From a virus: 64,000 nt of DNA. Positions 14,601 through 45,170 of the stretch are shown piece by piece. Every line of letters starts with the position of its first letter. Position 1 is the first letter of the stretch. The position numbers were made by a program, and so were the translations under genes. The DNA is taken from positions 10,485-74,484 of the IMG/VR virus record IMGVR_UViG_3300042887_003609. The stretch is one strand, 5' to 3'. Below the pieces are notes generated by a model that saw nothing but the letters and a program-made list of their open reading frames with translations, ran no database searches and was not told where the DNA came from.

Positions 14601-17600
14601 CTGAAAATTTCCTTGATTAGTTATTTCCAATTTAAAATCAATACCTCCATCTGCAGTTTTATTTAAAGCAAAAAATAATTCATCTTTTATTCTATTATTT
14701 ATAGACAGGTTAGCATCTGCTTTATTTATTTCTGCTGGTTTACCATCTTCATCATAAATAACATTTTCTTTTCTAAGTCTATTAGCTTCTTTAATTATAT
14801 CATTAAATAAGTCTGTAGTATCTTTAGCAGTTGCCTTACCTGGTCTAAGTTCTATAAACTTATATGTACCATTTGGTATTTTAACTACTAATACATATCT
14901 ACCTAATGTTTTTGTAGCATCTTCATAATAAGAAAGACCTTTGTCTTTAACTTGTGTATTAATAGCTTTTCTTATTTCTTCAGCTTCTTGAGGTGTTACA
15001 TTTTTAGTAATAATTTTTTCAACTTTAGTTTTAGTTTCTGGATTCTCAAATCTGTCAATTAAATAAATACCATTTTTATTATTTACATATTTGTATTTAA
15101 GATCACTAAAATTAGTAACATTACCACCTGTTAAATACTTATAAGAACCTACGCCTACTTTTGCATAAATATCAGATACAGAATCATACGGTATAACTGT
15201 TTCAGGTTTATTTTTAGATCTAGTTATTAACTCATTTATAAATGCAGAATAAGCGCTAAAAGATTTTTGAAAACCGTCAACAGTTTTTAAACTTTCTATA
15301 TTAGTAAAAAATATAGATTTGTATAGATCACTTGTCATTTGATTAACAGTGATTTCTTTACCTTCTTCATTATAAAATTTAAATGAATTTGGGTTTCTTA
15401 AATATCCTACAGTTACACCATTAATCTGTACACCAATTTCATATTCTTCAGACTGATATGCTATTCTATTATTTTTAACACCTTCCTGATTAGTTACAAA
15501 ATAATTTAATACTGGGTTAGTAACTTTATTTTTTCTTACAACAAATTTTATTTTAGAAAGTAATTCATCTTTTGGAGTTGTTATTAATAAAGACTCAAAC
15601 TCAGATTTTAATTCAGGGTTTTTAGTCCATACTGAATTATAAACCGTAAAAACTTCATTAGGAGAAGCTTTGGGTAAAAGTTCTAAACTAGATGGAGATT
15701 CTCCTTTTAAATAAAAACCATCTAATGTTTTTACTTTAAAGTAATTACCCACGGGTCTTCCTTTTTCTAGTTTAATTAATAAGAAAGTACCGTCTTTTTC
15801 AATGTTAGCTAACTGATAAGTTACAGGTTTATTGTCAGTATCTCTTTTTTCAAGAATATCATTTATCTTAAACTTCTTATCTTGTGTAAATACATCTTTT
15901 CCTTTTTTAGGTTCAGTTACTAATAAAGTTTGTTTGTCTCTTAAATCAGTTAATAAAGTACTAATATCTTTTTCTACTATAGGTCTTATCTGTGTAGTAT
16001 CTTTATCTATAACCATTATAGCATTACCTTCTTTATTAAGGAAAGTATAACCTACTGAAGCACCTGCTTTATTTTTTAATTCTACAAATCTTAATTTATT
16101 TATAAGATTCAATAAACCAGGATTATTAATAATAAGCTTAAGATCATCTTCAGAAAGTTGAGCATCTACAAAAGATACAGTTTCCGGTAATGGAACACCC
16201 ACGGTTGTTTCTGAAGTTTCAGTTTCTACAGGTTTATATATATTAACTACGTCTTGTAATTCTAAACCATAGTCAGAAACTAATTTTGCAACTCTAGGAT
16301 CTTGACCAAAATATTCAGAAGTTACATACTTTAAAATAAGATCAGGTTTATTCTTTATTATAAGACTATCAGTAGAAGATATAGGCATTACAACATATGA
16401 CCCAGACTTAGTTGATGATAAAAGATTTTTAAATGCATTCATAAAAGCATTTAATCTTTGAATTTGCTCATTACCATCTACATACTGTTGTATTGTAGCA
16501 CCACCTTTTTGCTCATCACTTAATTGAGCAAAACTATTTTCAGCAAACTCTTTAACCTTTACATCTAATTCATCATAAGAGACATTCTTAAATGTAATTG
16601 GTTTTTTAGATTGAGATTTTTTAGTTGGAGGCTCTTGATTTTTTTTTCTTGCTTCTTCTTCTTTTGCAGCTTGCTCTTTAGTTAAATTATCAAAATCTAA
16701 AATTAATCTTTCTACTTCTTTAAATCTTGGATCTGATTTACTAAAAGTTCTTTGTGTTTTTTGATCAACAAATTTAACATCTGGATCAGTTAACAAAAAA
16801 GTTTTAAATGCTTCATAACCTTTTGGAATATCTGTAGGTATAGTTGCTTTATCTATAATGAAATTATTATCATCAAGATAGTTTATAAGTTCATTTGTTT
16901 TAGCATCTGAAAGAAACTCTTTAAAGCTTTCTTTCATAAAGTCAGCTCTTTTTTCTTCAAATGCTTTTCTTGCTTTTATTCTTCTATTTACTTCATTGTA
17001 AAATCCTACTGGATCAGTAAGACTATTTACTGCTTCTGTAAATCTACCTAAATCTTTATTAAGAGCTAAGTAATCTATAAAGTAAGTATATGCTTTTTCA
17101 AGATCTGCTTTAATAAAAGTTTTATTATTATTTTCAGCAAGTTGATTCATGTACTTTACAAAAGCATCTTTAATCCATCTTGCTTTTTCTAATTCAGTTT
17201 TATCTTCAATAGACTCTATCTTCTCAAAATGTTTTTTAAACTGTTCTAAAGCTTTTAGTTTTTTAGATTTATTTTCAGTTTGTTTTTTAAGAGCTGGATC
17301 AGTTACATCTTTTGAAGTTTCAATTTCTTGAGATAAGATATCTATTTCAGTCTGAAGATCTGTAACACTTAATAAAGGTAATACATCACTAAAGGCTATA
17401 TCACCAAGATTACTAATCTCTGTAATATTATTACTTAAATCTTGTAAACGTTTAGAAACTAAATCTATATTATGTAAACTAAAAGTAGCAATCTTTCTAG
17501 CATCTTCAAATCCTTGATAACCAATTCTTTCTGTTTGAAATTGTTTAAAAGATTCAGGATCTTTTATAGATTCTAAAGTATATTTATTTGGATTAAAAGG

Positions 17601-26804: not shown

Positions 26805-29603
26805 TTATTTATATTTTTTTAACCAGTTAGTTTGTCCACCATCTTTCTTTTTATAAACAGGAATACCTTGTTTATTTTTTTCATAGTAGAATCTATCATA
26901 AACTTCATAAGGTTTTTTAAACCCATAAACTAAATCAGTAATTAAAGGTCCAAAGTCATATACATCATATAATGATATGTACTTACCTTTTTCATCCTCG
27001 CCTTTATCCAAAGTAAAATTTTGCAAAGGATCTTGTTGACTAAATGCTACACCAGAGGCTTCTAAATTTTTTCTACCTTTAATATAAGGATCTAATGAGG
27101 GTATTAATACTTTTGTTTCACCAGGCTTTAATTCTTTTTGTGCTTTTACGTAAGCATTAATAAGCTTTTGAGGATCATACATATTCTCAAATCTTACATA
27201 TTCTGTATCATTGTCTTCTGAATTAGCAGGTTTATAACTAGCAGGCTTAATATATTTGAAGTCATCTTTAAAACCTAATCCTTTTCTCCATGCTTCTTCA
27301 GAAGGAGATAAGTTACCCTTTTTATCTTTTAAAGGTTCAACAGAAGGATTATTTAATTTTATTATTGCATCTAATACATCAGGATATTCAATAGGTCTAT
27401 ACTTATCAAATACTTCATCTTTAAAATAGTTTAAACCTGTACCCAAAACTTTAGTTGTAAATCTTAATCCTGGATGATATTTTATAAAATTTTTAGCAAG
27501 CCATTTACCACCATCAAACAAAGTATTAGCAAAAGTTTTAACGCCAGGACTTGTAGCTGCTATTTTAATTTCTTGCATCCTATCTGGATTCTGCTCAGTT
27601 GATGTTTCACCACCTTCTTGATATTGATTTAACCATCCACCATATTTTTTACCTGGAGTATATTCAGATATAGGTGATCTATTGTAGTGAATTAAATATT
27701 CTCCGTTATCAAACTTTTTAGGATCTATCCCCATTCTTTCTGCCATAATGTTTTTTAAATTAGCAGATGAGTCATTTACATACTCTCCCATTTGTCTTCC
27801 AGAATTAATCATTTCTTGATCTATAGGAAAATATCCAGCTAAATTAAATTTAGATGGATCTTGAATAACAAATGTTTTCCTACCCCCATAATAATAATCC
27901 GGTCTATTTGTTGGTAGCCCCGCTTGTGCTAGTCTACTTGCATAAATAGATTCAGGTATTTTTGAAGCAAAATTATCATCAGTTTCTGTTGTTTTAATGT
28001 TTTTATTATTTCTATCATATTTAGATCTATACTTATTAGACAGATCTAAATTGTGAAGTTTTGCCCACTCTCTTATTTCAGGATTGTTTAACATTTCAAC
28101 CCTGGTTTGTTCTGCGCGATTCCAAATTTGATCAGGTCTATTTGCAGTATAATCATCAACCATCTCAATATTGTATCCTTGAGTTGCTAGTGCTTCATCA
28201 AATCTTTGATTAAGATTGGACATTCCACTTTCAACTTGTTGTTTTTTATCATAACCTACACTTTGATCATAGTCTACAAGGGAACTTTTATCTCCCTTTA
28301 AAATATAAGCGTATGTTTCTGGAGAGTTTAAGAAATAGTTTCCAGGATTTTGATTTAAATTGGTTGTCCATATTCTATTTGGACCGTATCCATCATCAAT
28401 GGTGTTTCCTTTATTAAGTGGTAAATTCCCAAAAGATCTTCCGACCATCTGTGGAAGAATGTAATCTTGTTCTAAAGATGTTTGAAAATTAGAAGCTGGT
28501 AAATTAATTCTATCGCCAGAAGTTAGTCTATTATCAATAGGATAATAAGAAGCAGCTACATTAACTAATTCTTCTAGCGTAGGATTTAATAAATTTACAG
28601 GAATATTAGGTTGAAAGGTAGTTTCTCCTTTAGTAGAACCCTTTGCTATTTCAGGATATATAGTAAGTGAGGGATTGTAAACTAAATTACCTTCCGTATC
28701 ATACATATATCTATTACTATCGCTTATCTTTTTTCTTTTAACTCTAATGTCAACAGGAGCTATTCTTGTAGGATTTTGTTCAGTTGATGTTTCTCCACCC
28801 TTTTGATAATTATCTAACCAACCCCCGTACTTCTTTTTTTCTACCTCATCTTGTACAGTATCTGCTGCATTTATTATTTGTTGCCAAGGTAAATACTTAT
28901 AAACAGCTTTCATTGCATCTGGATCAGCCAAATACTTTAGTTTACCTAATTTACCTAATGCTGGTACAGCACCAAACATATCCATTCCTTGCTCAAAACT
29001 TGGTAAGGTTGATCCTGATTTTTTCCATTTTTGATATGCTCTTCTAGCATCATCATGTGATGTATATCCAGTAGGATCAAAAAATTCTACTATGTTTTCT
29101 GCAGTAGAGTCAGGCATTGCATCATCCCATTCTTGAGTAGTATACCATTGTCCACCTTGTTGCTTACGCTTATGATTATAATCTATACGCTTACCAGAAG
29201 TCTTTTCTCTTTTAAACTTTGCTTTTTCAGCAGAAGACATTTCAGATGTAGTTTTAGGAGTAGTTTCATTTACTCTCTTCTTTGGTCTACATGCAGGATA
29301 TGGTCTACCATCTTTGTCCTTACCAGATCTGCCACAAGGTTTACCAGTTTTAATATCTGTCCACTCTTCAGCAAACCATTGTGTTAAACCACCTTTACCC
29401 ATCTGTGGTATTTCTGTAACATAATCACCGGGAAATGTATAATCCATTCCTGGCATCATAAGTTCTTGATTACCAAGGTTATCAATACCTAATACAGGAT
29501 AGTTAACACCCTGCATGGTTATATTATTAGAAGGTATAATAGTAACTTCACCGGGATATTCCCACTGACCAAATGGAGTTACTATAGGTTTCTTTTTACC
29601 CAT
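26805..29603 (-). CDS. Modular internal virion protein with xxxGG-delimited domains
   Basis: 932 aa. N-terminal GQWEYPG...ITMQGVNYPVLG domain, a GGLTQWF...CGRS...YPACRP module and a duplicated KKYGGWLxxYQxGGETSTEQNP linker. Confidence 0.7.
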   Translation of the reverse strand: MGKKKPIVTPFGQWEYPGEVTIIPSNNITMQGVNYPVLGIDNLGNQELMMPGMDYTFPGDYVTEIPQMGKGGLTQWFAEEWTDIKTGKPCGRSGKDKDGRPYPACRPKKRVNETTPKTTSEMSSAEKAKFKREKTSGKRIDYNHKRKQQGGQWYTTQEWDDAMPDSTAENIVEFFDPTGYTSHDDARRAYQKWKKSGSTLPSFEQGMDMFGAVPALGKLGKLKYLADPDAMKAVYKYLPWQQIINAADTVQDEVEKKKYGGWLDNYQKGGETSTEQNPTRIAPVDIRVKRKKISDSNRYMYDTEGNLVYNPSLTIYPEIAKGSTKGETTFQPNIPVNLLNPTLEELVNVAASYYPIDNRLTSGDRINLPASNFQTSLEQDYILPQMVGRSFGNLPLNKGNTIDDGYGPNRIWTTNLNQNPGNYFLNSPETYAYILKGDKSSLVDYDQSVGYDKKQQVESGMSNLNQRFDEALATQGYNIEMVDDYTANRPDQIWNRAEQTRVEMLNNPEIREWAKLHNLDLSNKYRSKYDRNNKNIKTTETDDNFASKIPESIYASRLAQAGLPTNRPDYYYGGRKTFVIQDPSKFNLAGYFPIDQEMINSGRQMGEYVNDSSANLKNIMAERMGIDPKKFDNGEYLIHYNRSPISEYTPGKKYGGWLNQYQEGGETSTEQNPDRMQEIKIAATSPGVKTFANTLFDGGKWLAKNFIKYHPGLRFTTKVLGTGLNYFKDEVFDKYRPIEYPDVLDAIIKLNNPSVEPLKDKKGNLSPSEEAWRKGLGFKDDFKYIKPASYKPANSEDNDTEYVRFENMYDPQKLINAYVKAQKELKPGETKVLIPSLDPYIKGRKNLEASGVAFSQQDPLQNFTLDKGEDEKGKYISLYDVYDFGPLITDLVYGFKKPYEVYDRFYYEKNKQGIPVYKKKDGGQTNWLKKYK
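27586..28836. repeat. Imperfect direct repeat of about 66 bp (27586-27651 and 28771-28836) encoding KKYGGWL(D/N)(N/Q)YQ(K/E)GGETSTEQNP
   Basis: Seen directly in both DNA and protein. Confidence 0.85.
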
Positions 29604-32600
29604 TATCTAAATGACTTTAACAACTTATTATTTGCTACTTTAAATAGTAATTTAGAAGACCCTGAAAATAGTTTTCTAAGAAGAACTCTATTTACATAAT
29701 GCCTAAATTTCTTTCTTTCAGTAGCCCCCTTATTATAATTTACATAACTTGAGTTAATATTCCTAATGTAACCATTGGATTCTACTAACCACATAGGTAT
29801 AGGATTATTTCTATCAGCAGTAATATCCCAGAATTGATTGAATCTATATTTCTGTTCTACTTTAGAATATAGAATATCAATGTTAGTAGCATTAACTTGT
29901 GGATAATTAAGTATCTGATATGGTGATGTTGGGGTTAAATTAAGTTTTAAAGTACCAGACATTTGTTCTGTATTATAAATAACAGCTTCGTCAAAGTTTT
30001 GGGTAAGCTGATGATACTTATTATTACAAGTTTCATCATATGTATAACACTCTAAAGCATACTCTACAGATCTAGTAGTTGTAACTTCCTGTCCTTGATT
30101 TTGTACATATTCAATTTCAAAAGGATATGGAACTCCATAGTAGTTACAGAATAAATCACATCTATCATTATGTTTCCAGATTTGATTATTTAAAATAGTT
30201 AGAAACTTAGACTTACTTCCTAAAGTTAAATTAGGATGCCAGTCATGGAATGATATCCAGGCTTTAGCTTTTAAATCATATGATACAGTCCAAGAGGCAT
30301 TTTCAAAATAGGTAGGATTACCAAGTAAAACTGTTCCGCCATTTACTAAGTTTATAAACTTTCCGTCCTTATCATAAATTAGTTTATTCTTAAACTGGGG
30401 TTTAAGTTTGAAATCTCTTTTTAAAACATATACAATTTCATTATCATTGTCATAAACACTTTGACAACCTACTCCAACAATTGTATTATCTAGTAGATCA
30501 AAGTCTTGAAAATCATTTAGAATTTGGTATTGTAAAAACTCATTAAACCACCACTTCATTCCGGTTTTGGATATGTCATTAAGACCAACTCCAAAACTAA
30601 ATACTTTACCCTGGTTAGCTGAAATATAGAATACTCCACCTGGTGTATTTAAAACTGATAATCTACTTTGACAAGAACCATATTCTATTTCACTATCTAC
30701 AGAAATAATATTTTGTAGAGGTTGACCGGTAAATAAACCACCGTCTCCTATAGTAAGTTTAGTTCCTGAGTTTAAATCTATTTGCTCAGTTCCTTGCATT
30801 AATATAGGACTTTGACTTTCAAGCATTATTATAGCTCCTGTTCTACCAACAGGTTTCATAGCAATAACTCTACTTGAGAAATCATAATAGTTATTAGCAA
30901 GGAATTGTTTCCAGTTATCTTTAAGTAATTCTTTTTGTTGTGGTAAAGAATATATTACCCTTTTTGGATAATAAATGTAACATTCTTCTGCTATACTTGG
31001 ATCATAAGATCTTGCTTGCAAATTACCCCAAGATATAAAAGATGAATAATGCTTAACTAAACTTAATGAATAATCATATTTGTAGTAGTTTATATCCCGT
31101 ATAACGTTAGGATCGAATAAAGACTCATAATCAGTATAAGTATAAAAATCATAATGTCTTTTACCCCTGTCTTCTTCATAATCTCTTAAAGCTAAATTAA
31201 TTTCTGATTCAACATAAAAATCTCTTATTCCAGAATTAAACAAATACATGTAAGCATTCTTAAGTATAAGTAATCCTGAAACTTTTTGTCTATCTAAATG
31301 AGAAAAATCATTTGGTAAAGTACTAGCAGAAAAACCTCCTAGTACACCTGATATAAAGTTAGTAGAATCAAACTTAGTAGTATTCATCCAATATCTAGGA
31401 TAAGGAAGCATATTATAAAGTCTATAATCATACTCAGTCCCATCAGGAAGATTTTCCATCCATTTTGAGAAATAAAAGAACGTATTCTTTTCAGTATATC
31501 TATTAATGTAAACATCCCCTCCAAAAATTACATCCGTTCTATCTTTTTGATTATATCCTCTATTCCAGAGTTGAATACATCCAACCGGTATTTGTTTGAT
31601 TTGTTCAAGTTGTCCATATTGATTATCAATTGCAACTTTTAAAGCTGCATACTTTGTTACAGAAGTAGATGTCTGTGAGTAATCCCAAGGTCTAGCATAA
31701 ACATCTCTTTCACTAGCATCTACGGGTCTTACTCTACCATTCTCATTTTTTGCAATATTCTTTACTGTAAATAAAGTATTATCTCTTGTATCTCTATTAA
31801 GAGTAGTGTTGGTAGAAACTACAACTGTTTTTGCTCTTAAAATATTATTAATCGTATAGTCTTCAGTATAGTCTTGACTAGCTGATTGTAAATAAACAGA
31901 CTTATCTAAACTACGTCTTCTTTGACCAATAGGACTATACTCAAAATTAGAATAAAAACCATGTGATACATACTGTAATGCATACTGTTGATATTTAGAA
32001 AAAGACTTGATTCCTTCCATAATATTATCAGTAGCTTGTACATAGAAGTATGTAAATAAAACACTCTTATAGGTTAATGTTAAAGCTAAACCTCCAACTA
32101 AAGCCAAAATTCCAGCATCAGTAAAACCTGTTGAAGCACTTAGTGAACTTGATAAAGCAGTATATTTTGCTAGTAATTCTAGTTGAGCTAATGGACCACC
32201 ATCTGCAGCATCTGCTGCTGTTCTTCCAATAGCTACTCCAGCAACTGAAGAAAGAAAGAAAAGTACATCTGTAGCTAATTTATTCTTAGAATGATTATCT
32301 ATTTCTTTAAATCTTCCGGTTACTGCTCCAGTTAATGTACCATACACTTTTAATTCACTAGCAGATAAGAAAGGATTACGAAAATTAGTTTCAGGTGAAT
32401 GGAATGAAAATATATCATCTTTAACACCATCAAAAAGTATTACATCATCATTACCTGTAGAACTATCAAATAAATCATTATCTCTATAAGCACCACCACG
32501 GGTTTGAGTATAAGTCTTATTATTGTTTACTAGTTCTTTATCTCTTCCTAAGAATGGATCATAACCTGTATAGTTATAAGGATAGTTTACATACAATCCG

Positions 32601-34348
32601 GTTTTATTAGAAACATCATTTGGAATATCATATTCTCTCATGTTGTTTATAATACCTTTTGCTAATATAGATCTATGACCTTCTCTTGAACCTCTTAAGA
32701 TTTCATAACCTACTATATTAGTAATTGGGTTACCTTGGTTATCAACTGGAAACTCAATATTTTCAAATTCAACACCCAAGATTACAATTGTATTATCTGC
32801 AGGATCATAGTTTCTAACTGTAGCTAAAGGACTTCTATTATCTCCATAGATTGCATCTTCTGGAAATTTATGATGTCTGATTGCTTTACCACAAAGTTCA
32901 CCCCATACATCTGCTTTATTATCAGGATATCTTTCTGTAGATTCCCAATAACCCATATCACCAGATAAAACAACAGTACCTCCATCTTGTAATACAGAAC
33001 TTGCATAAGATGTAATAGAAGCTGTTGATTCTACTTTCCATCTTTGTAAAGATATATCATTACCGGCATCCGGTCCATTAACTAAAAATGTATCAGATGT
33101 TTTAGAAGATCTTCCAGGAATATGATAAGAAGCTGATTTCTCTCCTGTATTATATATCCATCTTATAAAGAATGAATATACTTCATCTCTCATAAAAGAT
33201 GTTTTATTTCCACTCTTATAATAATACTCAGAAGAATATTTTACAGCTACCCACTTAGCTTTTATTTTATTAGCTTTTACTTGGTAATTAAAATCAAGAC
33301 TTGTAGTTGGACCAACTCTTACTAAATAGTTGTTCACTTTAAACATAGCGTCTGATTTTTCATACACTGGAGTTCTTAAAGGAATTAATTCAATAGGAAC
33401 TGAAGGTAATGCATTATCAATAAGATCTAAAGATACTTTATTAATATTAGTGCTATATACACCTATACTCTTTGCTACAGTCTGTTGATTAATAAAACTT
33501 ATAATAACTAACTCAAATTCATCATAGTCAGAATCTAAATTATCAAAATAAATATCTAAAGAACCTGAAAGATTTTCATGTGTCCACAATGGTTGCACAT
33601 TAGATATAGTAATATAATCAGTTACCTTAATACTATTAACTGTATATGCAATAGTTGCTTGATAAGATCCATTAGGTAATGAACCTAAACCCAATCCTTT
33701 TTCTACAGTTATACAAGGTACACTTGTTAATGTAGCCAATCTTAATGCGTCACAATCAATATCATTAGTAGGGATTGTAACATCACAATCAGGGTTATTA
33801 TTATTACTATCAGCTGGAGCTGGTACTTGTGTATATGGTACACCCGGCCATTTACCAAAAACATTTAAGTTAGGCCAACTATCAGGATTACCAATATTTA
33901 AAGTTCTAGATGGATTTAAACCATCATCCCAATACAATTGCATTGAGCAATCAGCATTACCTTTTGATACACCAATGATAGGTTTAACTTTAGAAAAGTT
34001 TAACTTACATGTACTAAGTGAATCATTTACTATAGTATAGTAACTACATGTATCTTCTATAAACAATCCTATCTCAGAAGGTAATCCATCTTGAATAGTA
34101 TGATTGTTTGTACTATATATAGCCCATCTACCTGCACTAATATATACCGAACCAATTATTTGATATGGTGCTTGAGTACAAAGTATATTACCTTGTTCAT
34201 TACCAATAACACCTATATCACCAGAATCAGAATTATTAACAACATTTCTAGCATGTGTCCATTGTCCTTCTGAGATATAAATATCATTAATATCTTTATA
34301 TAGACCTTTGTTAAAAACTTCGGTATGTACTGTACTAGTGTTTTGCAT
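29603..34348 (-). CDS. Tail stabilisation/muzzle-like protein (crAss-like Tstab)
   Basis: 1581 aa, beta-rich. N-terminal FNKGLYKD...ARN, internal FMRDEVYSFFI and FHSPE, C-terminal SWTVSYD...WISFHDWHP. Follows the tail tubular/ring genes. Confidence 0.75.
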   Translation of the reverse strand: MQNTSTVHTEVFNKGLYKDINDIYISEGQWTHARNVVNNSDSGDIGVIGNEQGNILCTQAPYQIIGSVYISAGRWAIYSTNNHTIQDGLPSEIGLFIEDTCSYYTIVNDSLSTCKLNFSKVKPIIGVSKGNADCSMQLYWDDGLNPSRTLNIGNPDSWPNLNVFGKWPGVPYTQVPAPADSNNNNPDCDVTIPTNDIDCDALRLATLTSVPCITVEKGLGLGSLPNGSYQATIAYTVNSIKVTDYITISNVQPLWTHENLSGSLDIYFDNLDSDYDEFELVIISFINQQTVAKSIGVYSTNINKVSLDLIDNALPSVPIELIPLRTPVYEKSDAMFKVNNYLVRVGPTTSLDFNYQVKANKIKAKWVAVKYSSEYYYKSGNKTSFMRDEVYSFFIRWIYNTGEKSASYHIPGRSSKTSDTFLVNGPDAGNDISLQRWKVESTASITSYASSVLQDGGTVVLSGDMGYWESTERYPDNKADVWGELCGKAIRHHKFPEDAIYGDNRSPLATVRNYDPADNTIVILGVEFENIEFPVDNQGNPITNIVGYEILRGSREGHRSILAKGIINNMREYDIPNDVSNKTGLYVNYPYNYTGYDPFLGRDKELVNNNKTYTQTRGGAYRDNDLFDSSTGNDDVILFDGVKDDIFSFHSPETNFRNPFLSASELKVYGTLTGAVTGRFKEIDNHSKNKLATDVLFFLSSVAGVAIGRTAADAADGGPLAQLELLAKYTALSSSLSASTGFTDAGILALVGGLALTLTYKSVLFTYFYVQATDNIMEGIKSFSKYQQYALQYVSHGFYSNFEYSPIGQRRRSLDKSVYLQSASQDYTEDYTINNILRAKTVVVSTNTTLNRDTRDNTLFTVKNIAKNENGRVRPVDASERDVYARPWDYSQTSTSVTKYAALKVAIDNQYGQLEQIKQIPVGCIQLWNRGYNQKDRTDVIFGGDVYINRYTEKNTFFYFSKWMENLPDGTEYDYRLYNMLPYPRYWMNTTKFDSTNFISGVLGGFSASTLPNDFSHLDRQKVSGLLILKNAYMYLFNSGIRDFYVESEINLALRDYEEDRGKRHYDFYTYTDYESLFDPNVIRDINYYKYDYSLSLVKHYSSFISWGNLQARSYDPSIAEECYIYYPKRVIYSLPQQKELLKDNWKQFLANNYYDFSSRVIAMKPVGRTGAIIMLESQSPILMQGTEQIDLNSGTKLTIGDGGLFTGQPLQNIISVDSEIEYGSCQSRLSVLNTPGGVFYISANQGKVFSFGVGLNDISKTGMKWWFNEFLQYQILNDFQDFDLLDNTIVGVGCQSVYDNDNEIVYVLKRDFKLKPQFKNKLIYDKDGKFINLVNGGTVLLGNPTYFENASWTVSYDLKAKAWISFHDWHPNLTLGSKSKFLTILNNQIWKHNDRCDLFCNYYGVPYPFEIEYVQNQGQEVTTTRSVEYALECYTYDETCNNKYHQLTQNFDEAVIYNTEQMSGTLKLNLTPTSPYQILNYPQVNATNIDILYSKVEQKYRFNQFWDITADRNNPIPMWLVESNGYIRNINSSYVNYNKGATERKKFRHYVNRVLLRKLFSGSSKLLFKVANNKLLKSFR

Positions 34349-35205
34349 TACAATCTAAAACTATTGGGATTATAACTTTTGAACATGTCATAGTATAAGT
34401 AGTTCATAGCTTTTCTATTCATGTTCATCATTTTTTTCATTTCATTAAAGTCAGGAGTATTAACCAAAGACAATGCATTATTTCTAGCTCCTCTTAGTCT
34501 CTGTTCAATTAAATTTAATTTTTGAATTACTTCCTCACCATTCATGTATAAGTTCTCAAGAATCCTTTGTTTCAATGCATACTCATAGTATTCATTAATA
34601 ACTGGATTATCAATAACTAATAAGTTACCTTCTTCATCTTCTAAAGTACCTTGGTAGTTTACATATATTTTACCACTGTCTATATTTAAAAAGATATAAC
34701 CATCTTTTAGTCTACCTTGAAAAGGAGATCTCCAAGTATAATCAGGGCAGTCACAAGATATTGTTTTAGAACTTCCAGACATTGCAATAGGAGCATTAAC
34801 TTCATAAGTTCTTGTCTCATATTTTAATTTCTGAATAACTTGAATGTACTGTCCACAATCATTTATACATACAGAATTACATGGAGTATTATCAGGTATG
34901 TTTTCAAGTATTACATCTTCTGTGTGTGTTCCTGACATAGCAGGTTCTTCTACTGTATATTGACCACATAACAAGACATAGTTTAAAACATAAAAATCAT
35001 CCGGTAGTCTTACTTTCTTATTTGAAATATCAAGAACTGTTTCCTTAGTCATGTTTATTCTTAAACCCAAATCATAGTTGACCCTTTGTACAACTTTGAT
35101 TAATTGCTGTGGTTCAATCATATTCTCTAATGAATACATAGAGAAGTCAATACTGACATCCTCTAGTAACTCATCAAAAGTTTTGTATTTTAATTCTGTA
35201 AGCAT
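34348..35205 (-). CDS. Tail tubular/ring protein
   Basis: 285 aa, KVRLPDDF...IYVNYQG...DEEGNLLVID. Directly upstream of the Tstab-like gene, with translational coupling. Confidence 0.65.
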   Translation of the reverse strand: MLTELKYKTFDELLEDVSIDFSMYSLENMIEPQQLIKVVQRVNYDLGLRINMTKETVLDISNKKVRLPDDFYVLNYVLLCGQYTVEEPAMSGTHTEDVILENIPDNTPCNSVCINDCGQYIQVIQKLKYETRTYEVNAPIAMSGSSKTISCDCPDYTWRSPFQGRLKDGYIFLNIDSGKIYVNYQGTLEDEEGNLLVIDNPVINEYYEYALKQRILENLYMNGEEVIQKLNLIEQRLRGARNNALSLVNTPDFNEMKKMMNMNRKAMNYLYYDMFKSYNPNSFRL

Positions 35206-35876
35206 TAGCGGTTAACATTAATATTATCATCAGACATATCAGTAGGTATTTGCAACCTCTGCATTAAATCACCAATAGCCATTTTTTCTATTTCAGCAAA
35301 TAGAAACTCTGGTATATTTATTTGTTGGTTTTGTCTTTTAACACAACTTACTTTATTATCTCCAATAGTACTTACATCATATGTAAAAACACCTTCTATC
35401 TTTACGGCATCCCAATCTATATTTGGAAAGTAAAGATATCCGTTTAAGAACCAAAAGTATTTGTTGTTATTATATTTAAAGCTTTTACTTTTACTCATTG
35501 ATGTATATATACCAGGAGTTGTACCAAACATCTCAACAGATCCATCTATTGATGCAACTGTACGGATAAGTGGGCCCCAATAACCTTCCATAAAAGTAGG
35601 AAGCTTTTCTTTAGTTCTTTTTATTAAACACCCTGATTTAATACCAGCACAACAGGCTTCAATTTTATCTATATCAATAAGCTCTACACATGGAAGAGTT
35701 TGCCAAATAGAATTAAATTTCATCAGCTTATTTGCTGAATCTTGTCTACGCATTAATACTTGTGCATATTTTAATACTACACTATATACGTATCTATCAG
35801 TAAGAAAAGCATCTTGCCTTACTCCTTTAACCTGGTTCTTTACACGGGATACTACCGTTTTAATTATTGTTGACAT
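35205..35876 (-). CDS. Tail ring/structural protein
   Basis: 223 aa, WQTLPCVELIDID...RTKEKLP...YFWFLNGYLYF; conserved crAss-like tail gene position. Confidence 0.6.
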   Translation of the reverse strand: MSTIIKTVVSRVKNQVKGVRQDAFLTDRYVYSVVLKYAQVLMRRQDSANKLMKFNSIWQTLPCVELIDIDKIEACCAGIKSGCLIKRTKEKLPTFMEGYWGPLIRTVASIDGSVEMFGTTPGIYTSMSKSKSFKYNNNKYFWFLNGYLYFPNIDWDAVKIEGVFTYDVSTIGDNKVSCVKRQNQQINIPEFLFAEIEKMAIGDLMQRLQIPTDMSDDNINVNR

Positions 35877-40800: not shown

Positions 40801-41663
40801 TTTTCACCACCTGAAATGGTTGAATAACAACCTGAAGCAGTGTTTCTTTGTCCACCACTTACGGTAGCAAGAAATCCCGCTTTATTACAATATCCACCAG
40901 AAACCGTTGAAAGTAAATCTAATGCCGAATTACAAGCACCATTTCCAACAAAACTTGCCGTTCCAAGAGCGCAGTTATTTAAACCACCACCTATTGAAGC
41001 ATAAAGACCTATAGATTTATTTGCAGAACCTCCTAAAATTGAAGAGTAGCATCCCGATGAAATGTTATTTATACCCGCTCCTACAAATGCTCCATCACCA
41101 CTTGCACAGTTATTCTGACCACCAAGTACAGCAGAATAATTACCTAATGCCGTATTACCTACATCTGATCTTTGTGTAGAAAGTAAACCAAGACCTTCTT
41201 CATATACACCTCCACCACCAACAGTAGTCCATTCAGTTCCATCCCAACTGTTTATAATAAACTCATCAGTGTTATAAATCATTAAACCAATTGCAGGAGA
41301 TACAATAGCATCTCTTTGAGCAACGGTCATCTTTGGAAATAATACTCCTTTAGTTGTAGATGAAATTTCTAATATAGCAGATGCATCATTAGCTGAAGAA
41401 TCTCCAACTTTTAATGGACCTGAAATTGCTGTTTTGTCAATAGCTAAAAATAATTGTGCTAAATTTCCATCAGGATCCTCTAATGCTCTTAGAGTTGTAG
41501 ACATAGGACCAGAACCTGCTAACTGCAGATAGTCCCCGTAAATTGTTGAATTAATTGCATCAACTAAAGCATTCAAATGTCCAAACTTAACAGCACCTAA
41601 TTGGTCACCTTGTTTAAGATATGGATCTGGACTTTGAGGAATAAACCTTTGTAATTTTGCCAT
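37884..41663 (-). CDS. Gly/Asn/Cys-rich repeat fibre protein (beta-roll, YadA-head-like repeats)
   Basis: 1259 aa. About 15-aa repeats GGxxNxAxGxxSx[VI]; N-terminal SPD...KFGHLN module; SAILEISSTTKGVLFPKMT...GLMIYNTD fibre motif; C-terminal beta domain shared with the small paralogues. Confidence 0.8.
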   Translation of the reverse strand: MAKLQRFIPQSPDPYLKQGDQLGAVKFGHLNALVDAINSTIYGDYLQLAGSGPMSTTLRALEDPDGNLAQLFLAIDKTAISGPLKVGDSSANDASAILEISSTTKGVLFPKMTVAQRDAIVSPAIGLMIYNTDEFIINSWDGTEWTTVGGGGVYEEGLGLLSTQRSDVGNTALGNYSAVLGGQNNCASGDGAFVGAGINNISSGCYSSILGGSANKSIGLYASIGGGLNNCALGTASFVGNGACNSALDLLSTVSGGYCNKAGFLATVSGGQRNTASGCYSTISGGENMKATEWYSGIGAGHINCATGFASYLGGGEYNISQGNFGIVGGGQSNCATSTYSSVVGGCGNRATTYGSFIGGGNNNVASGAGSFIGGGSSNCASGSVSTISGGNSNSNSSLYGVIGGGSANSTSGNAATVAGGRINSASNLYAFVGGGRGNNASGCNSFIGSGSSNTASATRSFIGGGASNTASCTCSSILGGELNRALGSYSVVAGGFSNCACTSAFIGGGSNNLATGACSFVGSGCLNNASNSRAIVVGGSSNTASGYFSSILGGLSNSTTASYSTISGGRQNSASGYISIVVGGASNTASGNGSVVVGGNLNNASVLKSVVVGGTSNSASGQYSGIVAGNGNTSSGNYSFVGAGQTNLSSGRTSAIVGGQQNQATCNFTLVGGGQNNCATNVYSSVVGGCGNQATGYASFVGGGRGNCATTDCSVVVGGVCNVASGLGRAFVGGGQENGAGWLASVVGGFRNGATGVYSAVLGGDSNSVSGAYSALGSGKGNVVSGGSSFIGGGNNNSSIGDNTIIGGGRSNATCGIYSSIGGGERNRALGAYSSIAGGFSNCACISAFIGGGCNNLATGTSSFVGGGYENIACDLAATVGGGNNNCATQVFSTIGGGRNNKAIGLQSTVSGGQDNCATCHTAFVGGGANNSATGCRSAIVGGVYNTSSGVYSFVGGGYLNTAIGGYASIAGGTLNTANGNGSFSAGCNSRANARNSASFMGSLVSGNESASFGLENTVSSENSAAYGHNNTISSSGIRNFTLGFQNSIGCAANYAIAIGNGASAQANNSHSFGTNSTTRNVYSITFGLQSDTYLYGQIAHANGSLILNRGDSQASQLVSRRRSASVTTGTTLTLSLDGTGTTNLIIPEGSNRAWNVTVKWVAVVTAISGTATGVTVGDYMVETNTFGFKRVGGTSSITAIGTSGTQGDGSITGTALMTYTAGASQELSMVFTAPTYVGGGTLTMQVVAKVELTENSW

Positions 41664-41731: not shown

Positions 41732-41932
41732 TTATTTCAGTCTGATGTATTTATACCATACTCGTTCATGTATATAGTATAATACCATTTTGGTAATTAG
41801 TTCTACCCCACCAATTTTTAATCCGGTAGACATGTTACCTGTAATAATATACCCTAAGAGAATAGTATCAATTGTGCCTACTATTCTCCAGGTAATTGTT
41901 TTTAATATATGTCTTAGTTTGTCACTACTCAT
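41732..41932 (-). CDS. DUF2061-family small membrane protein
   Basis: RHILKTITWRIVGTIDT...ELITKMVLYYIHERVW is the DUF2061 signature; the family is commonly found beside cysC/cysD. Confidence 0.85.
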   Translation of the reverse strand: MSSDKLRHILKTITWRIVGTIDTILLGYIITGNMSTGLKIGGVELITKMVLYYIHERVWYKYIRLK

Positions 41933-42276
41933 AAACCCATTTCTTTACGAATTTTTGTAGCAGATATTTCCTTAATATGATCAGGTACTTCTATTTGTTC
42001 TACCTTGTATCCTACATCTCTTCCATAGTACACACCTTCAATATCCGGAATAATCATTACTTTAACCTTATCTTCAGATATATAAGATTTAAGACTATCT
42101 TCAATCATTGCTTTAACTTGTTCTGCAGTGAATGGATTTTTTTCATCAGTAGGTACATCTCTAATTGCAATTAGAACCGGAAGTTTTTTTTCTTCTAATA
42201 GAGTATCTACAAGATACTTATGACCCCCATGAAAGATTTGGTATCTACCAATCATTAAACTATATTTATTCTTCAT
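41929..42276 (-). CDS. Small HIGH-superfamily nucleotidyltransferase, candidate minimal ATP sulfurylase
   Basis: GRYQIFHGGH (HxxH), NPFT, YYGRDVG and ISATKIR motifs; located in an operon with APS kinase and a sulfotransferase. Confidence 0.7.
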   Translation of the reverse strand: MKNKYSLMIGRYQIFHGGHKYLVDTLLEEKKLPVLIAIRDVPTDEKNPFTAEQVKAMIEDSLKSYISEDKVKVMIIPDIEGVYYGRDVGYKVEQIEVPDHIKEISATKIRKEMGL

Positions 42277-43027
42277 AATGCTTTTTATAAACCTTTGTAC
42301 AAATATCTATAAATTCTTCTTGAGTAAAAACATTTTTCATGATATTTATTTTTTTATGCACCCATTGTAAATTACCAATACTGTAACCTTGATCTGAATT
42401 GATTCTGTCAAGAGAAGCGTTACCAACACCAAATTTATTTTTAGTAACATTGCTAAATACTAAATCCATTCCAGACAAGGCGCATTTTTTATTTTGATTT
42501 AAATAAAGCTCTTCTAAATACTCAATATCAATATCAAAAATAATGTTTCTACTTAAAGCTCCTCTTTTTATTGCTGTAAAAAAAGTTAAAGCTATATGTT
42601 CAGTACCTTTCCAATTTTTGTGAAAATTTCGTTTAGCGTGATGAATACAACCACAAGAAGTAGTATCACCTATTCTTAATGCTTTAGTACTAACTACTTT
42701 ATCACTTCCACAATCACATTTACAATACCAAGCTTTTCTACCATTTCTAGATAACGTTTGAGAAATAACTGTTAGTTTTCCAAATTTTTGATTTATTAAA
42801 TTTACATTATTCACAACTAAACATCCACAACTTGCATATTTACTATTTAATAAATAATTTCTACTTACATACTTTTCATTTCCACAATCACATTTACATT
42901 TAATAAGAGTAATATTACTAACTTTTCCAGTTTTAGATGTTTGTTTACTACTTTTAAAATCATCTAAAACTAAAAGATTCCCAAATTTCTTACCAACAAT
43001 TGACTTATCAAATGGACGGTTTTTCAT
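42266..43027 (-). mobile_element. Free-standing HNH homing endonuclease gene
   Basis: Two KFGxLxV...CKCDCG repeats and a C-terminal KCALSG...ASLDRINSDQGY..GNLQWVHK.IN.MK HNH domain; overlaps both neighbouring genes. Confidence 0.85.
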
Positions 43028-43478
43028 TTGTGTTTTTTATTAAATTAATTACTTTATATACAGATGCTAATTCTGGTTCTTCTGATGTGTTAATTACTAA
43101 ATCAGCATCTTCCGGTACATCAAAATCTAAAACATGAAAGTTTTCTCTACCTCTAAGATCTGTAGCATGATAATGTAGATAAACCCATTTTACATTTTCA
43201 TTTAGTTTAGATAAATATTCTCTAGCTTCTTTATATGGATATACTAAAGTAACTATAACCAAATCTAATTCAAAAGATAAATAGTGAGCAATATCAGAAG
43301 CTGTTTTTAGATTACTAAGTCTTCCTTCCTTTGTATAACTTTTATTGTTAAACATTTGTCTTAGTATATCACCATCTATATGATCAAAGAGTAAACCCCG
43401 GTCATTTAAATCAGCTTTTAATAAATGAGCTATTGTTGACTTACCAGAATGGGGTTGTCCAAATAATACTAATATCAT
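43008..43478 (-). CDS. cysC: Adenylyl-sulfate (APS) kinase
   Basis: P-loop GQPHSGKST, IDGDILR, YTKEGRLSN, VTLVYPY..ARE and FDVP..ADLVINT. Confidence 0.85.
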   Translation of the reverse strand: MILVLFGQPHSGKSTIAHLLKADLNDRGLLFDHIDGDILRQMFNNKSYTKEGRLSNLKTASDIAHYLSFELDLVIVTLVYPYKEAREYLSKLNENVKWVYLHYHATDLRGRENFHVLDFDVPEDADLVINTSEEPELASVYKVINLIKNTNEKPSI

Positions 43479-44293
43479 TTTGTATATCTAAAATATTGAT
43501 TGTACCATTGGAAGTTATCCCAAATCCAGTTAGTAACATCTTTACCCAAAATAGTTTTAGCTTGAGAAGGTACAGGTTCTAATCTTGTTCTAATAACATG
43601 ATCACCATATATACCATATACACTATCATCTTCTTGAGTAATCTGAGGAATATTATCAAAGTCATGCTTATACTGAGGTACACCTAAGTACTCATATATC
43701 TTACGCATTTCTTCATCTGGATATAAACATAAATCTTCAAACTTTACAAAGTGGATATGCTTATCAATACCCTGTCTGATAATTTCATTTAACCTTTCAA
43801 CGGCCATTCCTACAGGTTGAGATGCTAACCAAGCATCAACTCTTTTAGGAGTTGTAGTACCTCTCATTTCAGCATGACTAACAATAGGATCAGTTTTATC
43901 TTGATTCTTTCTAAAGTTCTTTTCCATAGAAGCAATGATATCTCTCATATCTCTAACCATACAAATAATTTTTGGTTGTGGATAAAAGCTATTTAAAAAA
44001 TCATAGTGTATACCCCAGCCACGTGATTTATCTATAACATATTTTTTATCTGTAATAGAATTAAAGAATCCTTCTACACCTTCTTTACAAAAACCTAAGA
44101 AAGCATCTTTCATTAGTTGATGATCCTGAGCTTTAAACTCAGGAGAATCTGTATAGTTTGCTCTTGCTGCAAATACTAATTCTAAAACACCACTAGTAGG
44201 TGTTACATAAAAATCTGGGTTTTGACCAAGTATATTTTGTAATAATGTACTTCCACTTCTTGGTAAAGATGAGTTAAAAAATATTTTTTCCAT
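43475..44293 (-). CDS. PAPS-dependent sulfotransferase
   Basis: 5'-PSB loop SLPRSGSTLL, IDKSRGW, 3'-PB motif MVRDMRDIIAS and VKFEDL...IYEYLG. Confidence 0.9.
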   Translation of the reverse strand: MEKIFFNSSLPRSGSTLLQNILGQNPDFYVTPTSGVLELVFAARANYTDSPEFKAQDHQLMKDAFLGFCKEGVEGFFNSITDKKYVIDKSRGWGIHYDFLNSFYPQPKIICMVRDMRDIIASMEKNFRKNQDKTDPIVSHAEMRGTTTPKRVDAWLASQPVGMAVERLNEIIRQGIDKHIHFVKFEDLCLYPDEEMRKIYEYLGVPQYKHDFDNIPQITQEDDSVYGIYGDHVIRTRLEPVPSQAKTILGKDVTNWIWDNFQWYNQYFRYTK

Positions 44294-44294
44294 A

Positions 44295-45170
44295 TTAGAT
44301 TACTTCTAATGCTTTAATAATGTCTTGTGAATTAAAAATCTCTTTTTCACTATGATAAGGAAACTCTAATGGATCTCCAATGATATTGAATTTTCCTAAG
44401 TATGCATTTCTCAGTTCAGGTTTCTTTGTAAAAAGATTAGCTTCAATGTTAGTGTGAGTGTCATATCCAAATACACCTTTTTTATTAGCTACCCAACAAA
44501 CTACTGATGGTAATAATAGTGCAGCAGCAGCATGTTGTGCAAATGAATCAATTAATAATCTCTTATCACTCATCATTAATAATACACAAAGTGATCTAAA
44601 ATTATCAGATACTGTAATTGCATTTTTTAATTCCGGTTGATCTTCTCTACGGATATGTACAACATTATGTGTACCTTTAAAATGATCTACTACATCTTGT
44701 GCTACTGCATACGGCAGATCTCTAGCCCAAGAGTATTTTACTTCCTGGTTAGGAGCACCACCATTTGTTTGTAAAGTAAGAATAGGTTTATCAGATCTGT
44801 ATTTAGCTGAGAAAAATTCAAGTTCTCTTGCTGTTAGATATAATTTTGGATATTCACCATTATACTGATATCCAAACATTTTGCACCAGGTTTTTAATAA
44901 ATGCTCTGTACCTTGTATATGAGCTACCTCTAAATAAGGATTATGTGCATGTATAATACAATCTTTATCTTCTATAAACTCTTCATAAAAATAAGATTGT
45001 TGTCCAAATCCATATGATCTATCTACATTTGGATTGTTTAAAAAAACATCTGGATACCCAGATACTACAATTAATTTTGCTTCCGGGTGATGATTTTTAA
45101 TACATTCACATACTGCAGTGGCCATTATACACTTTCCAAGACCACCATCAATTTGAAATACTATATTCAT
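44295..45170 (-). CDS. GT-B glycosyltransferase (GT9/heptosyltransferase-like)
   Basis: GGLGKCIMAT...HPEAKLIVV...VFLNNPNV N-terminus and LLIDSFAQHAAAALLLPSVVCW donor-binding motif. Confidence 0.8.
   Translation of the reverse strand: MNIVFQIDGGLGKCIMATAVCECIKNHHPEAKLIVVSGYPDVFLNNPNVDRSYGFGQQSYFYEEFIEDKDCIIHAHNPYLEVAHIQGTEHLLKTWCKMFGYQYNGEYPKLYLTARELEFFSAKYRSDKPILTLQTNGGAPNQEVKYSWARDLPYAVAQDVVDHFKGTHNVVHIRREDQPELKNAITVSDNFRSLCVLLMMSDKRLLIDSFAQHAAAALLLPSVVCWVANKKGVFGYDTHTNIEANLFTKKPELRNAYLGKFNIIGDPLEFPYHSEKEIFNSQDIIKALEVI

What the first reader, a model, noticed from the sequence alone, without database searches (positions are those of the whole stretch)
41929..42276. 115-aa HIGH-family protein may be a minimal ATP sulfurylase
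Seen: GRYQIFHGGH, YYGRDVG and ISATKIR. Established: Sat-type ATP sulfurylases (about 400 aa) use an HxxH motif, a GRD loop (IVGRDHAG) and a C-terminal ISGTxxR. NMN adenylyltransferases share GRFQPFHxGH and ISxT but not the GRD loop. Inference: the operon has APS kinase but no cysD/cysN/sat, so this protein fills the missing step as a stripped-down catalytic core. It would probably be auto-annotated as a cytidylyltransferase.
Basis: partly seen in the sequence, partly recalled or inferred. Interest (0 to 1): 0.7.

Follow-up and report, generated by a model that had tools for sequence, protein, structure and literature searches.

The report
Candidate miniature ATP sulfurylase in phage
A crAss-like phage carries a 115-residue enzyme that almost always sits beside or is fused to APS kinase, including in microbes lacking every known ATP sulfurylase, so it is probably an undescribed tiny enzyme for the first step of sulfate activation; it has not been assayed.

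Summary
The ORF (41929..42276, minus strand, 115 aa) and its three motifs are real. By sequence and fold it is a cut-down HxGH nucleotidyltransferase. Its nearest relatives are archaeal/NadM NMN adenylyltransferases, not Sat.

Across 129 diverse relatives the signature is G-R-x-V-G-Y, and the D of "GRD" varies.

The functional guess has four lines of independent gene-context support:
- **APS kinase linkage.** Of 150 evaluable loci, APS kinase is adjacent in 106, fused in 17 and within two genes in 12. Some fusions, in both orders, involve canonical APS kinases.
- **Sulfotransferases.** Three different families lie nearby in 54 of 157 loci.
- **Missing canonical enzymes.** 40 of 50 cellular genomes carrying the gene have neither Sat nor CysD. 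Two of these are complete chromosomes.
- **Assimilation operons.** In Nitrospiraceae the gene follows sulfite reductase and CysH. DUF2061, its usual neighbour, also heads one canonical cysH-cysDN operon examined.

In the window the cassette reads GT9-like, sulfotransferase, trimmed APS kinase, inserted HNH endonuclease, NT, DUF2061. The most likely function is ATP + sulfate to APS, feeding PAPS synthesis (about 0.68). No assay exists, and I found no publication describing the family.

This scan has reached the same reading before on other DNA: nine notes, which are not independent evidence.

The parts
41929..42276 (-). 115-aa minimal HxGH/ISxT nucleotidyltransferase (NT); candidate ATP sulfurylase
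   Evidence: ORF. PF01467 24.5 bits. PHROG 10255 positions 132-229, E 4.4e-21. AF2 pLDDT 89.4. Fold Z 10.5 to NMNAT 1f9a and Z 8.0 to ATP sulfurylase 1v47. Family signature R39 plus G85-R86-x-V-G-Y.
43008..43478 (-). 156-aa trimmed APS kinase (short lid)
   Evidence: PF01583 55.2 bits and TIGR00455 53 bits, covering about two thirds of each profile. All 19 PDB sequence hits are APS kinases; best is 8a8h, E 6.6e-12. P-loop, DGD, R40, R53, N56, xPY and R86 are conserved in 81 relatives. It is the only PF01583 match in the virus record.
42266..43027 (-). 253-aa HNH endonuclease inserted between kinase and NT, overlapping both gene ends
   Evidence: PHROG 374 HNH endonuclease, E 3.3e-31. No Pfam hit. 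The relative L040 has the same cassette without it.
41732..41932 (-). 66-aa DUF2061 small membrane protein, overlapping the NT stop
   Evidence: PF09834 84.4 bits. Next to the NT in 67 loci. Fused to the NT (P0146, P0217) or to APS kinase (G009). First gene of a canonical cysH-cysD-cysN-sir operon in G034.
43475..44293 (-). 272-aa PAPS-type sulfotransferase
   Evidence: Sulfotransfer_3 80 bits and Sulfotransfer_1 55 bits. LPRSGST (5'-PSB-like) and RDMRD..S (3'-PB-like) strings are visible in the translation. Same cluster in 17 NT loci, 14 of them viral.
44295..45170 (-). 291-aa protein of unknown family that travels with the cassette; possible GT9-like glycosyltransferase (lead only)
   Evidence: No Pfam or NCBIfam hit. 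Present in 17 NT loci. The Atlas neighbours are viral clusters, one of which carries PF01075 in 15% of members.

Best explanation
The 115-aa protein belongs to a large unnamed family of miniature adenylyltransferases derived from the archaeal/NadM NMNAT lineage. It keeps the ATP-binding half: GRxQxxHxGH, NPFT and ISxT..R. It has lost about 23 residues between strand 3 and the C-terminal helix; from memory, that stretch forms the nicotinamide pocket in NMNAT. It has gained two invariant arginines (R39, R86) inside family-specific motifs. I infer that it catalyses ATP + sulfate -> APS + PPi. The co-transcribed trimmed APS kinase then converts APS to PAPS, which pulls the unfavourable first step. 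The adjacent sulfotransferase uses PAPS to sulfate a glycan or protein, perhaps the glycine-rich fibre-like proteins that flank the cassette. What is shown: the gene order, the family signature, fusion or adjacency to APS kinase, linkage to sulfotransferases, DUF2061 and cysH-sir, and the lack of Sat and CysD in most host genomes. What is inferred: the chemistry, the roles of R39 and R86, the sulfation target and any physical complex.
For: 1. APS kinase linkage. Of 150 loci with enough upstream DNA, a kinase is adjacent in 106, fused in 17 and within two genes in 12. Fusions occur in both orders and with canonical full-length APS kinases: P0259 180 bits, P0261 170 bits, P0306 231 bits. 927 longer homologues mostly carry PF01583 plus PF01467. 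This mirrors the Sat-CysC and PAPSS architectures.
2. Sulfotransferases. Three different families lie within six genes in 54 of 157 loci.
3. Pathway hole. Among 50 NT-bearing cellular genomes, PF01747 is found in 6 and CysD in 4, so 40 have neither. These include the complete chromosomes G009 (4.7 Mb) and G006 (1.0 Mb). In five genomes checked, the only APS kinase is the gene directly upstream of the NT. In the family of G009, CysD is found in 95 of 151 sampled genomes. It is found in 0 of 11 NT-bearing Chitinophagaceae-type genomes.
4. Assimilatory operon. In three Nitrospiraceae genomes the order is sulfite reductase - CysH - NT.
5. DUF2061. The NT's frequent neighbour or fusion partner also heads a canonical cysH-cysD-cysN-sir operon.
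6. Catalytic residues H16, H19, R11, S105, T107 and R110 are 93-100% conserved, so the protein looks catalytic.
7. In the window itself, sulfotransferase, kinase, NT and DUF2061 form one tightly packed same-strand block.
Against: - No member of the family has been assayed.
- The nearest relatives by sequence and fold are NMNATs. There is no PF01747 match, and hhalign against Sat gives only 32% probability.
- The D of GRD is not conserved.
- Ten of the 50 genomes also have Sat or CysD, so the NT is not always needed to fill a gap.
- 14 of 150 loci have no kinase nearby.
- Phages Sano and DLP_6 carry the fusion with no annotated sulfotransferase nearby.
- Most of the genomes are MAGs or single-cell assemblies, so absence of Sat and CysD is soft evidence except in the two complete chromosomes.
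- The NT-bearing Chitinophagaceae are probably one clade, so 0 of 11 is not eleven independent events.
- The window's kinase lacks part of the lid.
- The AF2 model shows no regular strands in residues 78-98, so a complete active site may need oligomerisation.
Confidence: 0.68

Rival explanations
1. The kinase and NT act in series on another substrate: the kinase phosphorylates it and the NT makes an NDP-activated sugar or cofactor, as in HldE, NadR or Fkp. The product would feed the neighbouring GT9-like enzyme for glycan decoration. PAPS for the sulfotransferase would come from the host.
For: The kinase lies upstream of the NT. Small NTs of about 125-160 aa such as TagD, Fom1 CyTase and HldC share the fold at Z 6.6-7.6. 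A possible GT9-like gene is adjacent. The window's kinase is trimmed, and the phage fusion type replaces DGD with NAD. Sano and DLP_6 have no sulfotransferase nearby.
Against: Relatives are fused to canonical full-length APS kinases. All PDB hits of the window's kinase are APS kinases. 40 of 50 genomes with sulfotransferase-linked cassettes lack any other route to APS. The Nitrospiraceae sir-cysH-NT operon has no kinase at all.
Confidence: 0.12
2. It is a small NMN adenylyltransferase for phage NAD+ salvage, as public annotation pipelines name it.
For: The best NCBIfam, PDB-sequence and fold matches are archaeal/NadM NMNATs. GRxQxxHxGH and NPFT are shared. Many large phages carry NadM-Nudix. 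JGI names homologues NMNAT.
Against: Scores are far below family cut-offs: 39.8 against 127, and 36.7 against 181. Similarity stops at about residue 80, and about 23 residues of the NMNAT C-terminal half are missing. No NadV or Nudix partner appears among the neighbour clusters; instead there are APS kinase, sulfotransferases and DUF2061.
Confidence: 0.07
3. It is a non-catalytic nucleotide-binding partner that regulates or scaffolds APS kinase. The precedent is the APS-kinase-like regulatory domain of fungal ATP sulfurylase.
For: It is obligately paired with the kinase. It is very small, and residues 78-98 of the model lack regular structure.
Against: All catalytic signature residues of the superfamily are invariant across 129 diverse representatives. 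The family also occurs without a kinase in a sir-cysH operon. This reading would leave 40 genomes with no APS source.
Confidence: 0.05

Closest known systems
Sat-type ATP sulfurylase and Sat-CysC / PAPS synthase fusions (PF01747; e.g. PDB 1v47, 2gks, 1x6v)
   Same: It shares the HIGH-type alpha/beta nucleotidyltransferase superfamily fold (Z 8.0 to 1v47, 111 residues aligned). It has HxxH and ISxT..R motifs. It is fused or adjacent to APS kinase in both orders. It has the proposed same reaction.
   Different: There is no PF01747 match. It has 115 aa against about 350-400, and no PUA-like N-domain. The N-terminal motif is the NMNAT type (GRxQxxHxGH), not QxRNPxHxxH. The GRDHAG loop is not reproduced: the family has G-R-x-V-G-Y. 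It descends from a different branch of the superfamily.
Archaeal / NadM-type NMN adenylyltransferase (TIGR01527, NF002243; PDB 1f9a, 1ej2, 2qjt)
   Same: It is the closest relative by sequence (E 1.4e-7) and by fold (Z 10.5, 33% identity). It shares GRFQPFHxGH, NPFT and SxT..R.
   Different: Scores are far below family cut-offs. About 23 residues are deleted between strand 3 and the last helices. R39 and R86 are invariant where, from memory, NMNAT has GSAQ and SGN. The gene context is sulfate activation, not NAD salvage.
CysDN heterodimeric ATP sulfurylase
   Same: It has the proposed same reaction. DUF2061 is a shared neighbour.
   Different: The fold is unrelated (PAPS-reductase-like ATP pyrophosphatase plus GTPase), and CysDN is driven by GTP hydrolysis. 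The NT would rely only on coupling to APS kinase or APS reductase and to pyrophosphatase.
PPAT plus dephospho-CoA kinase (CoA synthase)
   Same: A small HIGH-family adenylyltransferase (PPAT, Z 10.1) is followed by a P-loop kinase that phosphorylates the adenosine 3'-OH. The logic is the same as APS to PAPS.
   Different: The substrate is 4'-phosphopantetheine. No CoA genes appear in the context.
Beta-hydroxylase / sulfotransferase / 'PAPS synthetase' / tail-collar operons (Iyer, Abhiman, de Souza, Aravind 2010, PMC2938197)
   Same: The Chitinophagaceae loci found here match that description: tail-collar proteins, Asp/Asn beta-hydroxylase, 2OG oxygenase, sulfotransferase and a PAPS-making pair.
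   Different: The paper's text does not describe the small NT or say which enzymes it calls PAPS synthetases. The window's cassette has no hydroxylases.

Membership tests
Sat-type ATP sulfurylase (PF01747) | Match to the PF01747 profile above its cut-off | tested here: not met
   The Pfam scan of the window protein lists only PF01467. There is no PF01747 match in the virus record. One relative, P0261, gives a sub-threshold 21.6 bits at its ISxT end.
Sat-type ATP sulfurylase (PF01747) | QxRNPxHxxH and GRDHAG active-site loops | tested here: not met
   The window has GRYQIFHGGH. G85-R86 are invariant, but D87 is G, D or K across 129 representatives and there is no HAG. hhalign (32%) pairs Sat's GRD with NT R39-D40, not with residues 85-87.
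Sat-type ATP sulfurylase (PF01747) | Sulfate-dependent APS formation | not testable with these tools
   This needs an enzyme assay.
Archaeal/NadM NMNAT (TIGR01527, NF002243) | Score above the NCBIfam cut-off over the full length | tested here: not met
   39.8 bits against 127, and 36.7 against 181.2. Only residues 6-80 match.
Archaeal/NadM NMNAT (TIGR01527, NF002243) | Complete C-terminal half (helix after strand 3 and the SGN strand) that holds NMN | tested here: not met
   Profile positions 65-86 stand opposite residues 64-108 of 1f9a, about 23 residues fewer. 107 of 164 residues align structurally. The identity of the NMN-contact residues is from memory and was not checked.
HIGH / cytidylyltransferase-like superfamily (PF01467) | HxGH and ISxT..R motifs, the Rossmann-like fold and a Pfam match | tested here: met
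   PF01467 scores 24.5 bits against a cut-off of 21. The motifs are invariant. Top fold hits are all superfamily members at Z 8-10.5.
Unnamed mini-NT family paired with APS kinase (C-terminal half of PHROG 10255) | Signature R39 plus G-R-x-V-G-Y and a profile match | tested here: met
   PHROG 10255 positions 132-229, E 4.4e-21. The signature residues are present.
Unnamed mini-NT family paired with APS kinase (C-terminal half of PHROG 10255) | APS kinase adjacent or fused | tested here: met
   In the window the kinase is two genes upstream on the same strand, separated only by an HNH endonuclease. The family-wide figure is 135 of 150 loci.

The most novel reading that the evidence does not exclude
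A third, independently evolved class of ATP sulfurylase: an NMNAT-derived enzyme of about 110 residues. It works only when coupled to APS kinase or APS reductase, often with the small membrane protein DUF2061. It would give phages, and abundant marine lineages that lack Sat and CysDN (Marinimicrobia/SAR406, MGIII archaea, Pelagibacteraceae), the ability to activate sulfate.
Probability: 0.6. Interest if true: 0.85.

Novelty: new variant of a known kind. Interest (0 to 1): 0.72.

Why it matters
Only two kinds of ATP sulfurylase are recognised, Sat and CysDN (from my knowledge of the field). Genome-based sulfur-cycle inference relies on detecting them. If this family makes APS, several things follow:
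- Many microbes and hundreds of phages now scored as unable to activate sulfate could in fact make PAPS.
- Sulfated glycans or proteins on phage fibres and bacterial envelopes would gain a self-contained biosynthetic route.
- DUF2061 would gain a functional context.
- A 115-residue sulfate-activating enzyme would be a compact part for enzymology and engineering.

The claim can be tested directly with simple assays.

Tried and rejected
- **Complex prediction** of the window's kinase (A3) with the NT (A1) gave no answer, score 0.00. This is not evidence either way.
- **AF2 of a fused relative** (P0122 with A4) gave pLDDT 92.2 but pTM 0.62. The domain arrangement is therefore not defined, and nothing can be concluded about channelling.
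- **Profile-profile comparison with six Sat sequences** gave 32% probability. This is too weak to call homology of loops.
- **Fold searches** place the protein in the superfamily but cannot separate NMNAT, PPAT and Sat-like functions.
I obtained contexts with the search for related loci and my own ORF calling instead.
- **The NT-DHHA1 fusion** (P0258), a possible pAp phosphatase link, rests on a sub-threshold 23.6-bit hit. The PDB sequence search matched nothing in its C-terminal part, so I keep it only as a lead.
- **Literature searches** for DUF2061, phage sulfotransferase with APS kinase, ATP sulfurylase with cytidylyltransferase-like, and viral AMG cysC with sulfotransferase found no description of the family.
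- **The 'stripped-down Sat core' idea** is rejected as a statement of descent. The family branches with NMNATs.

Full report
**Observation.** The window holds an ORF at 41929..42276 on the minus strand encoding 115 aa. It contains GRYQIFHGGH, YYGRDVG and ISATKIR exactly as reported. It sits in a tightly packed same-strand block. In order of transcription the block reads:
- a 291-aa protein of unknown family (44295..45170);
- a sulfotransferase (43475..44293; Sulfotransfer_3, 80 bits);
- an APS-kinase-like protein (43008..43478; PF01583, 55 bits);
- an HNH endonuclease (42266..43027; PHROG 374) that overlaps both neighbours;
- the 115-aa protein;
- a DUF2061 membrane protein (41732..41932; 84 bits).

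The block lies between two glycine-rich giant ORFs of 1259 and 1596 aa. The window belongs to a 74.5-kb IMG/VR virus record with crAss-type tail ring proteins. That record has no PF01747 or PF01507 match and has exactly one APS kinase.

**What the protein is by sequence and fold.** Pfam gives only the generic CTP_transf_like family (24.5 bits). NCBIfam's best hits are archaeal and NadM NMN adenylyltransferases. They cover residues 6-80 only, at 37-40 bits against cut-offs of 127-181. A profile of 41 homologues finds NMNAT structures in the PDB (1f9a, E 1.4e-7) and no ATP sulfurylase.

The AlphaFold model is confident (pLDDT 89.4). It aligns best to NMNAT 1f9a (Z 10.5, 107 residues), then PPAT (Z 10.1), then NadM (Z 9.0). 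Thermus ATP sulfurylase 1v47 scores Z 8.0. This places the protein in the superfamily without telling functions apart.

Relative to NMNAT, about 23 residues are missing between strand 3 and the C-terminal helix. From memory of the NMNAT structures, this segment carries nicotinamide-contact residues. I did not verify that here.

**The motifs.** In close homologues the string YYGRDVGY is invariant. In 129 representatives of 50%-identity clusters, however, D87 is G (42), D (41) or K (24). G85, R86 and G89 are at least 99% conserved, V88 93% and R39 97%. The family signature is therefore G-R-x-V-G-Y plus an arginine after strand 2, not Sat's GRDHAG.

hhalign against six Sat sequences taken from the genomes searched gives 32% probability. 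It pairs Sat's GRD with the NT's R39-D40, and ISGT with ISAT, which is inconclusive. From general knowledge, a G-x-D turn after this strand is common in the superfamily.

**Family size and architectures.**
- 3628 similar-length homologues.
- 927 longer homologues.
- 1168 clusters at 50% identity, 409 of them at E <= 1e-10.
- At least 401 viral contigs and 278 species genomes. The genomes include Marinimicrobia, Chitinophagaceae, Marinoscillum, MGIII/Poseidoniales archaea, Nitrospiraceae and Pelagibacteraceae.

PHROG 10255 is a 230-position profile. Its N-terminal part matches the window's kinase and its C-terminal part matches the NT. The window thus carries, as two genes split by a homing endonuclease, what Xylella phage Sano gp35 and Stenotrophomonas phage DLP_6 carry as one protein.

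Other relatives are fused to canonical full-length APS kinases in both orders: NT-CysC in P0259 (180 bits), P0261 and P0291, and CysC-NT in P0306 (231 bits). There are also fusions to DUF2061 and to DUF4118 plus a kinase.

**Gene context.** I called ORFs in 80 viral and 80 cellular loci and searched them with profiles. Of 150 loci with at least 700 bp upstream of the NT:

| Position of APS-kinase homologue | Loci |
|---|---|
| Adjacent | 106 |
| Fused | 17 |
| Within two genes | 12 |
| Farther | 1 |
| None found | 14 |

DUF2061 is present in 67 loci, usually directly next to the NT. Three unrelated sulfotransferase clusters (Sulfotransfer_1/3 of the window's type, a second Sulfotransfer_3-like group, and Sulfotransfer_5) occur within six genes in 54 loci.

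Three recurrent layouts appear:
- **Viral cassette:** 291-aa protein, sulfotransferase, kinase, NT, DUF2061. L040 is the window's cassette without the endonuclease.
- **Chitinophagaceae operon:** tail-collar proteins, Asp/Asn beta-hydroxylase, DUF2061::APS kinase, NT, sulfotransferase, 2OG oxygenase. This matches the predicted protein hydroxylation-sulfation systems with 'PAPS synthetases' described by Iyer et al. 2010 (PMC2938197).
- **Marinimicrobia polysaccharide loci:** Wzz, kinase, NT, UDP-glucose dehydrogenase, Poly_export, Sulfotransfer_5.

**The pathway hole.** In 50 NT-bearing cellular genomes, PF01747 is found in 6 and CysD in 4, so 40 have neither. Among these are a complete 4.74-Mb Chitinophagaceae chromosome (G009) and a complete 0.97-Mb Fidelibacterota chromosome (G006). 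In G009, G006, G012, G026 and G022 the only PF01583 match is the gene immediately upstream of the NT.

CysD is found in 95 of 151 sampled genomes of G009's family, while the NT is found only in G009. None of the 11 NT-bearing Chitinophagaceae-type genomes has CysD or Sat. These genomes are probably one clade, so this is not eleven independent events.

CysH occurs only in genomes that also have Sat or CysD (one further weak PF01507 match in G046). In most hosts the pair would therefore serve sulfation rather than assimilation.

**Two further links to sulfate.** First, among the 14 loci with no kinase nearby, three Nitrospiraceae genomes show sulfite reductase (NIR_SIR+TusA) - CysH - NT. There the NT occupies the place of the sulfate-activating enzyme in an assimilatory operon. 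Second, DUF2061 is the first gene of a canonical Rrf2 / DUF2061 / cysH / cysD / cysN / sulfite reductase operon in a Flavobacteriaceae genome. It is also fused to the APS kinase in G009.

**The kinase.** All 19 PDB sequence hits are APS kinases; the best is 8a8h at E 6.6e-12. The P-loop, DGD, R40, R53, N56, x-P-Y and R86 are conserved in 81 short relatives. The lid is shortened but keeps the ENF...PE stretch. The phage fusion subtype is more divergent, with N-A-D in place of D-G-D.

**Interpretation.** The most economical reading is that the NT makes APS from ATP and sulfate. It would be pulled by the coupled APS kinase, or by APS reductase in Nitrospiraceae, and by pyrophosphatase. The window would then encode a self-contained PAPS supply for its sulfotransferase. 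I put this at about 0.68.

Points against:
- there is no assay;
- the closest homologues are NMNATs;
- ten genomes carry the NT alongside canonical enzymes;
- some loci lack a kinase;
- Sano-type phages show no sulfotransferase nearby;
- absence of Sat and CysD rests mostly on MAGs, which may be incomplete.

Rivals:
- a kinase-then-NT pathway for another activated compound (0.12);
- a true NMNAT (0.07);
- a non-catalytic partner of the kinase (0.05).

**Novelty.** I found no publication describing this family. Public sources name its members NMNAT, PPAT, FAD synthase or cytidyltransferase-like. This scan has noted the same thing on other DNA at least nine times, with follow-up agents reaching the same reading. 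Those are unchecked AI notes. They did not shape my analysis, which I had already formed, and I tested their central claims independently here. Relative to the literature this would be a new, non-orthologous variant of a known enzyme activity within a known fold superfamily.

**What led nowhere.** The complex prediction gave no answer.

Noticed in passing
window 42266-43027 (-): A 253-aa HNH endonuclease sits between the kinase and the NT. It overlaps the kinase's end by 20 nt and the NT's start by 11 nt. Relatives have variable 140-264-aa ORFs at the sulfotransferase|kinase junction instead, so the cassette looks like a recurrent landing site for mobile endonucleases.
   Followed up: partly
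L169 (G034:C1:3672500-3680500) and G009:C1:948276-948896: DUF2061 is the first gene of a canonical Rrf2 / DUF2061 / cysH / cysD / cysN / sulfite-reductase operon. In Chitinophagaceae it is fused to APS kinase. This small membrane protein seems tied to sulfate activation generally, perhaps to uptake or membrane anchoring.
   Followed up: partly
L147, L149, L154 (Nitrospiraceae), NT at about 7900-8414: The operon reads sulfite reductase (NIR_SIR+TusA) - CysH - NT (165-178 aa, longer than usual), with no kinase. The same genomes carry a Sat-CysC fusion on another contig.
   Followed up: partly
window 37884-41663 (-) and 45624-50414 (-): Two giant glycine/serine/asparagine-rich repeat proteins (1259 and 1596 aa, no Pfam hit) flank the sulfation cassette. 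They look like fibre or beta-helix proteins and are candidate sulfation or glycosylation targets. Long proline-rich ORFs on the opposite strand are probably by-products of the repeats.
   Followed up: no
window 1-35876 (-): A run of very large ORFs (4683 aa at 5649..19700; more than 1882 aa at 1..5646; 1581 aa at 29603..34348) lies next to crAss-type tail ring proteins 1 and 2 (34348..35205 and 35205..35876). The phage is crAss-like with unusually large tail or muzzle proteins.
   Followed up: no
L093-L139 (Chitinophagaceae loci): A conserved operon reads: two tail-collar proteins, two unknown proteins, Asp/Asn beta-hydroxylase, DUF2061::APS kinase, NT, sulfotransferase, 2OG oxygenase. It matches the protein hydroxylation-sulfation systems predicted by Iyer et al. 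2010.
   Followed up: partly
alignment A4 (fused kinase-NT proteins such as P0122, P0134): The kinase half of the phage fusion subtype has N-A-D-E-V-R where APS kinases have D-G-D..R. It is more divergent than the window's separate kinase.
   Followed up: no
P0258 (432 aa): An NT domain is followed by a region with a sub-threshold DHHA1 hit (23.6 bits). If real, this could be a pAp-phosphatase-type partner. It is unconfirmed.
   Followed up: partly
L089, L094, L100 (Marinoscillum): The NT stands without a kinase, downstream of a TerB-like protein and near DUF4837. This context is unexplained.
   Followed up: no
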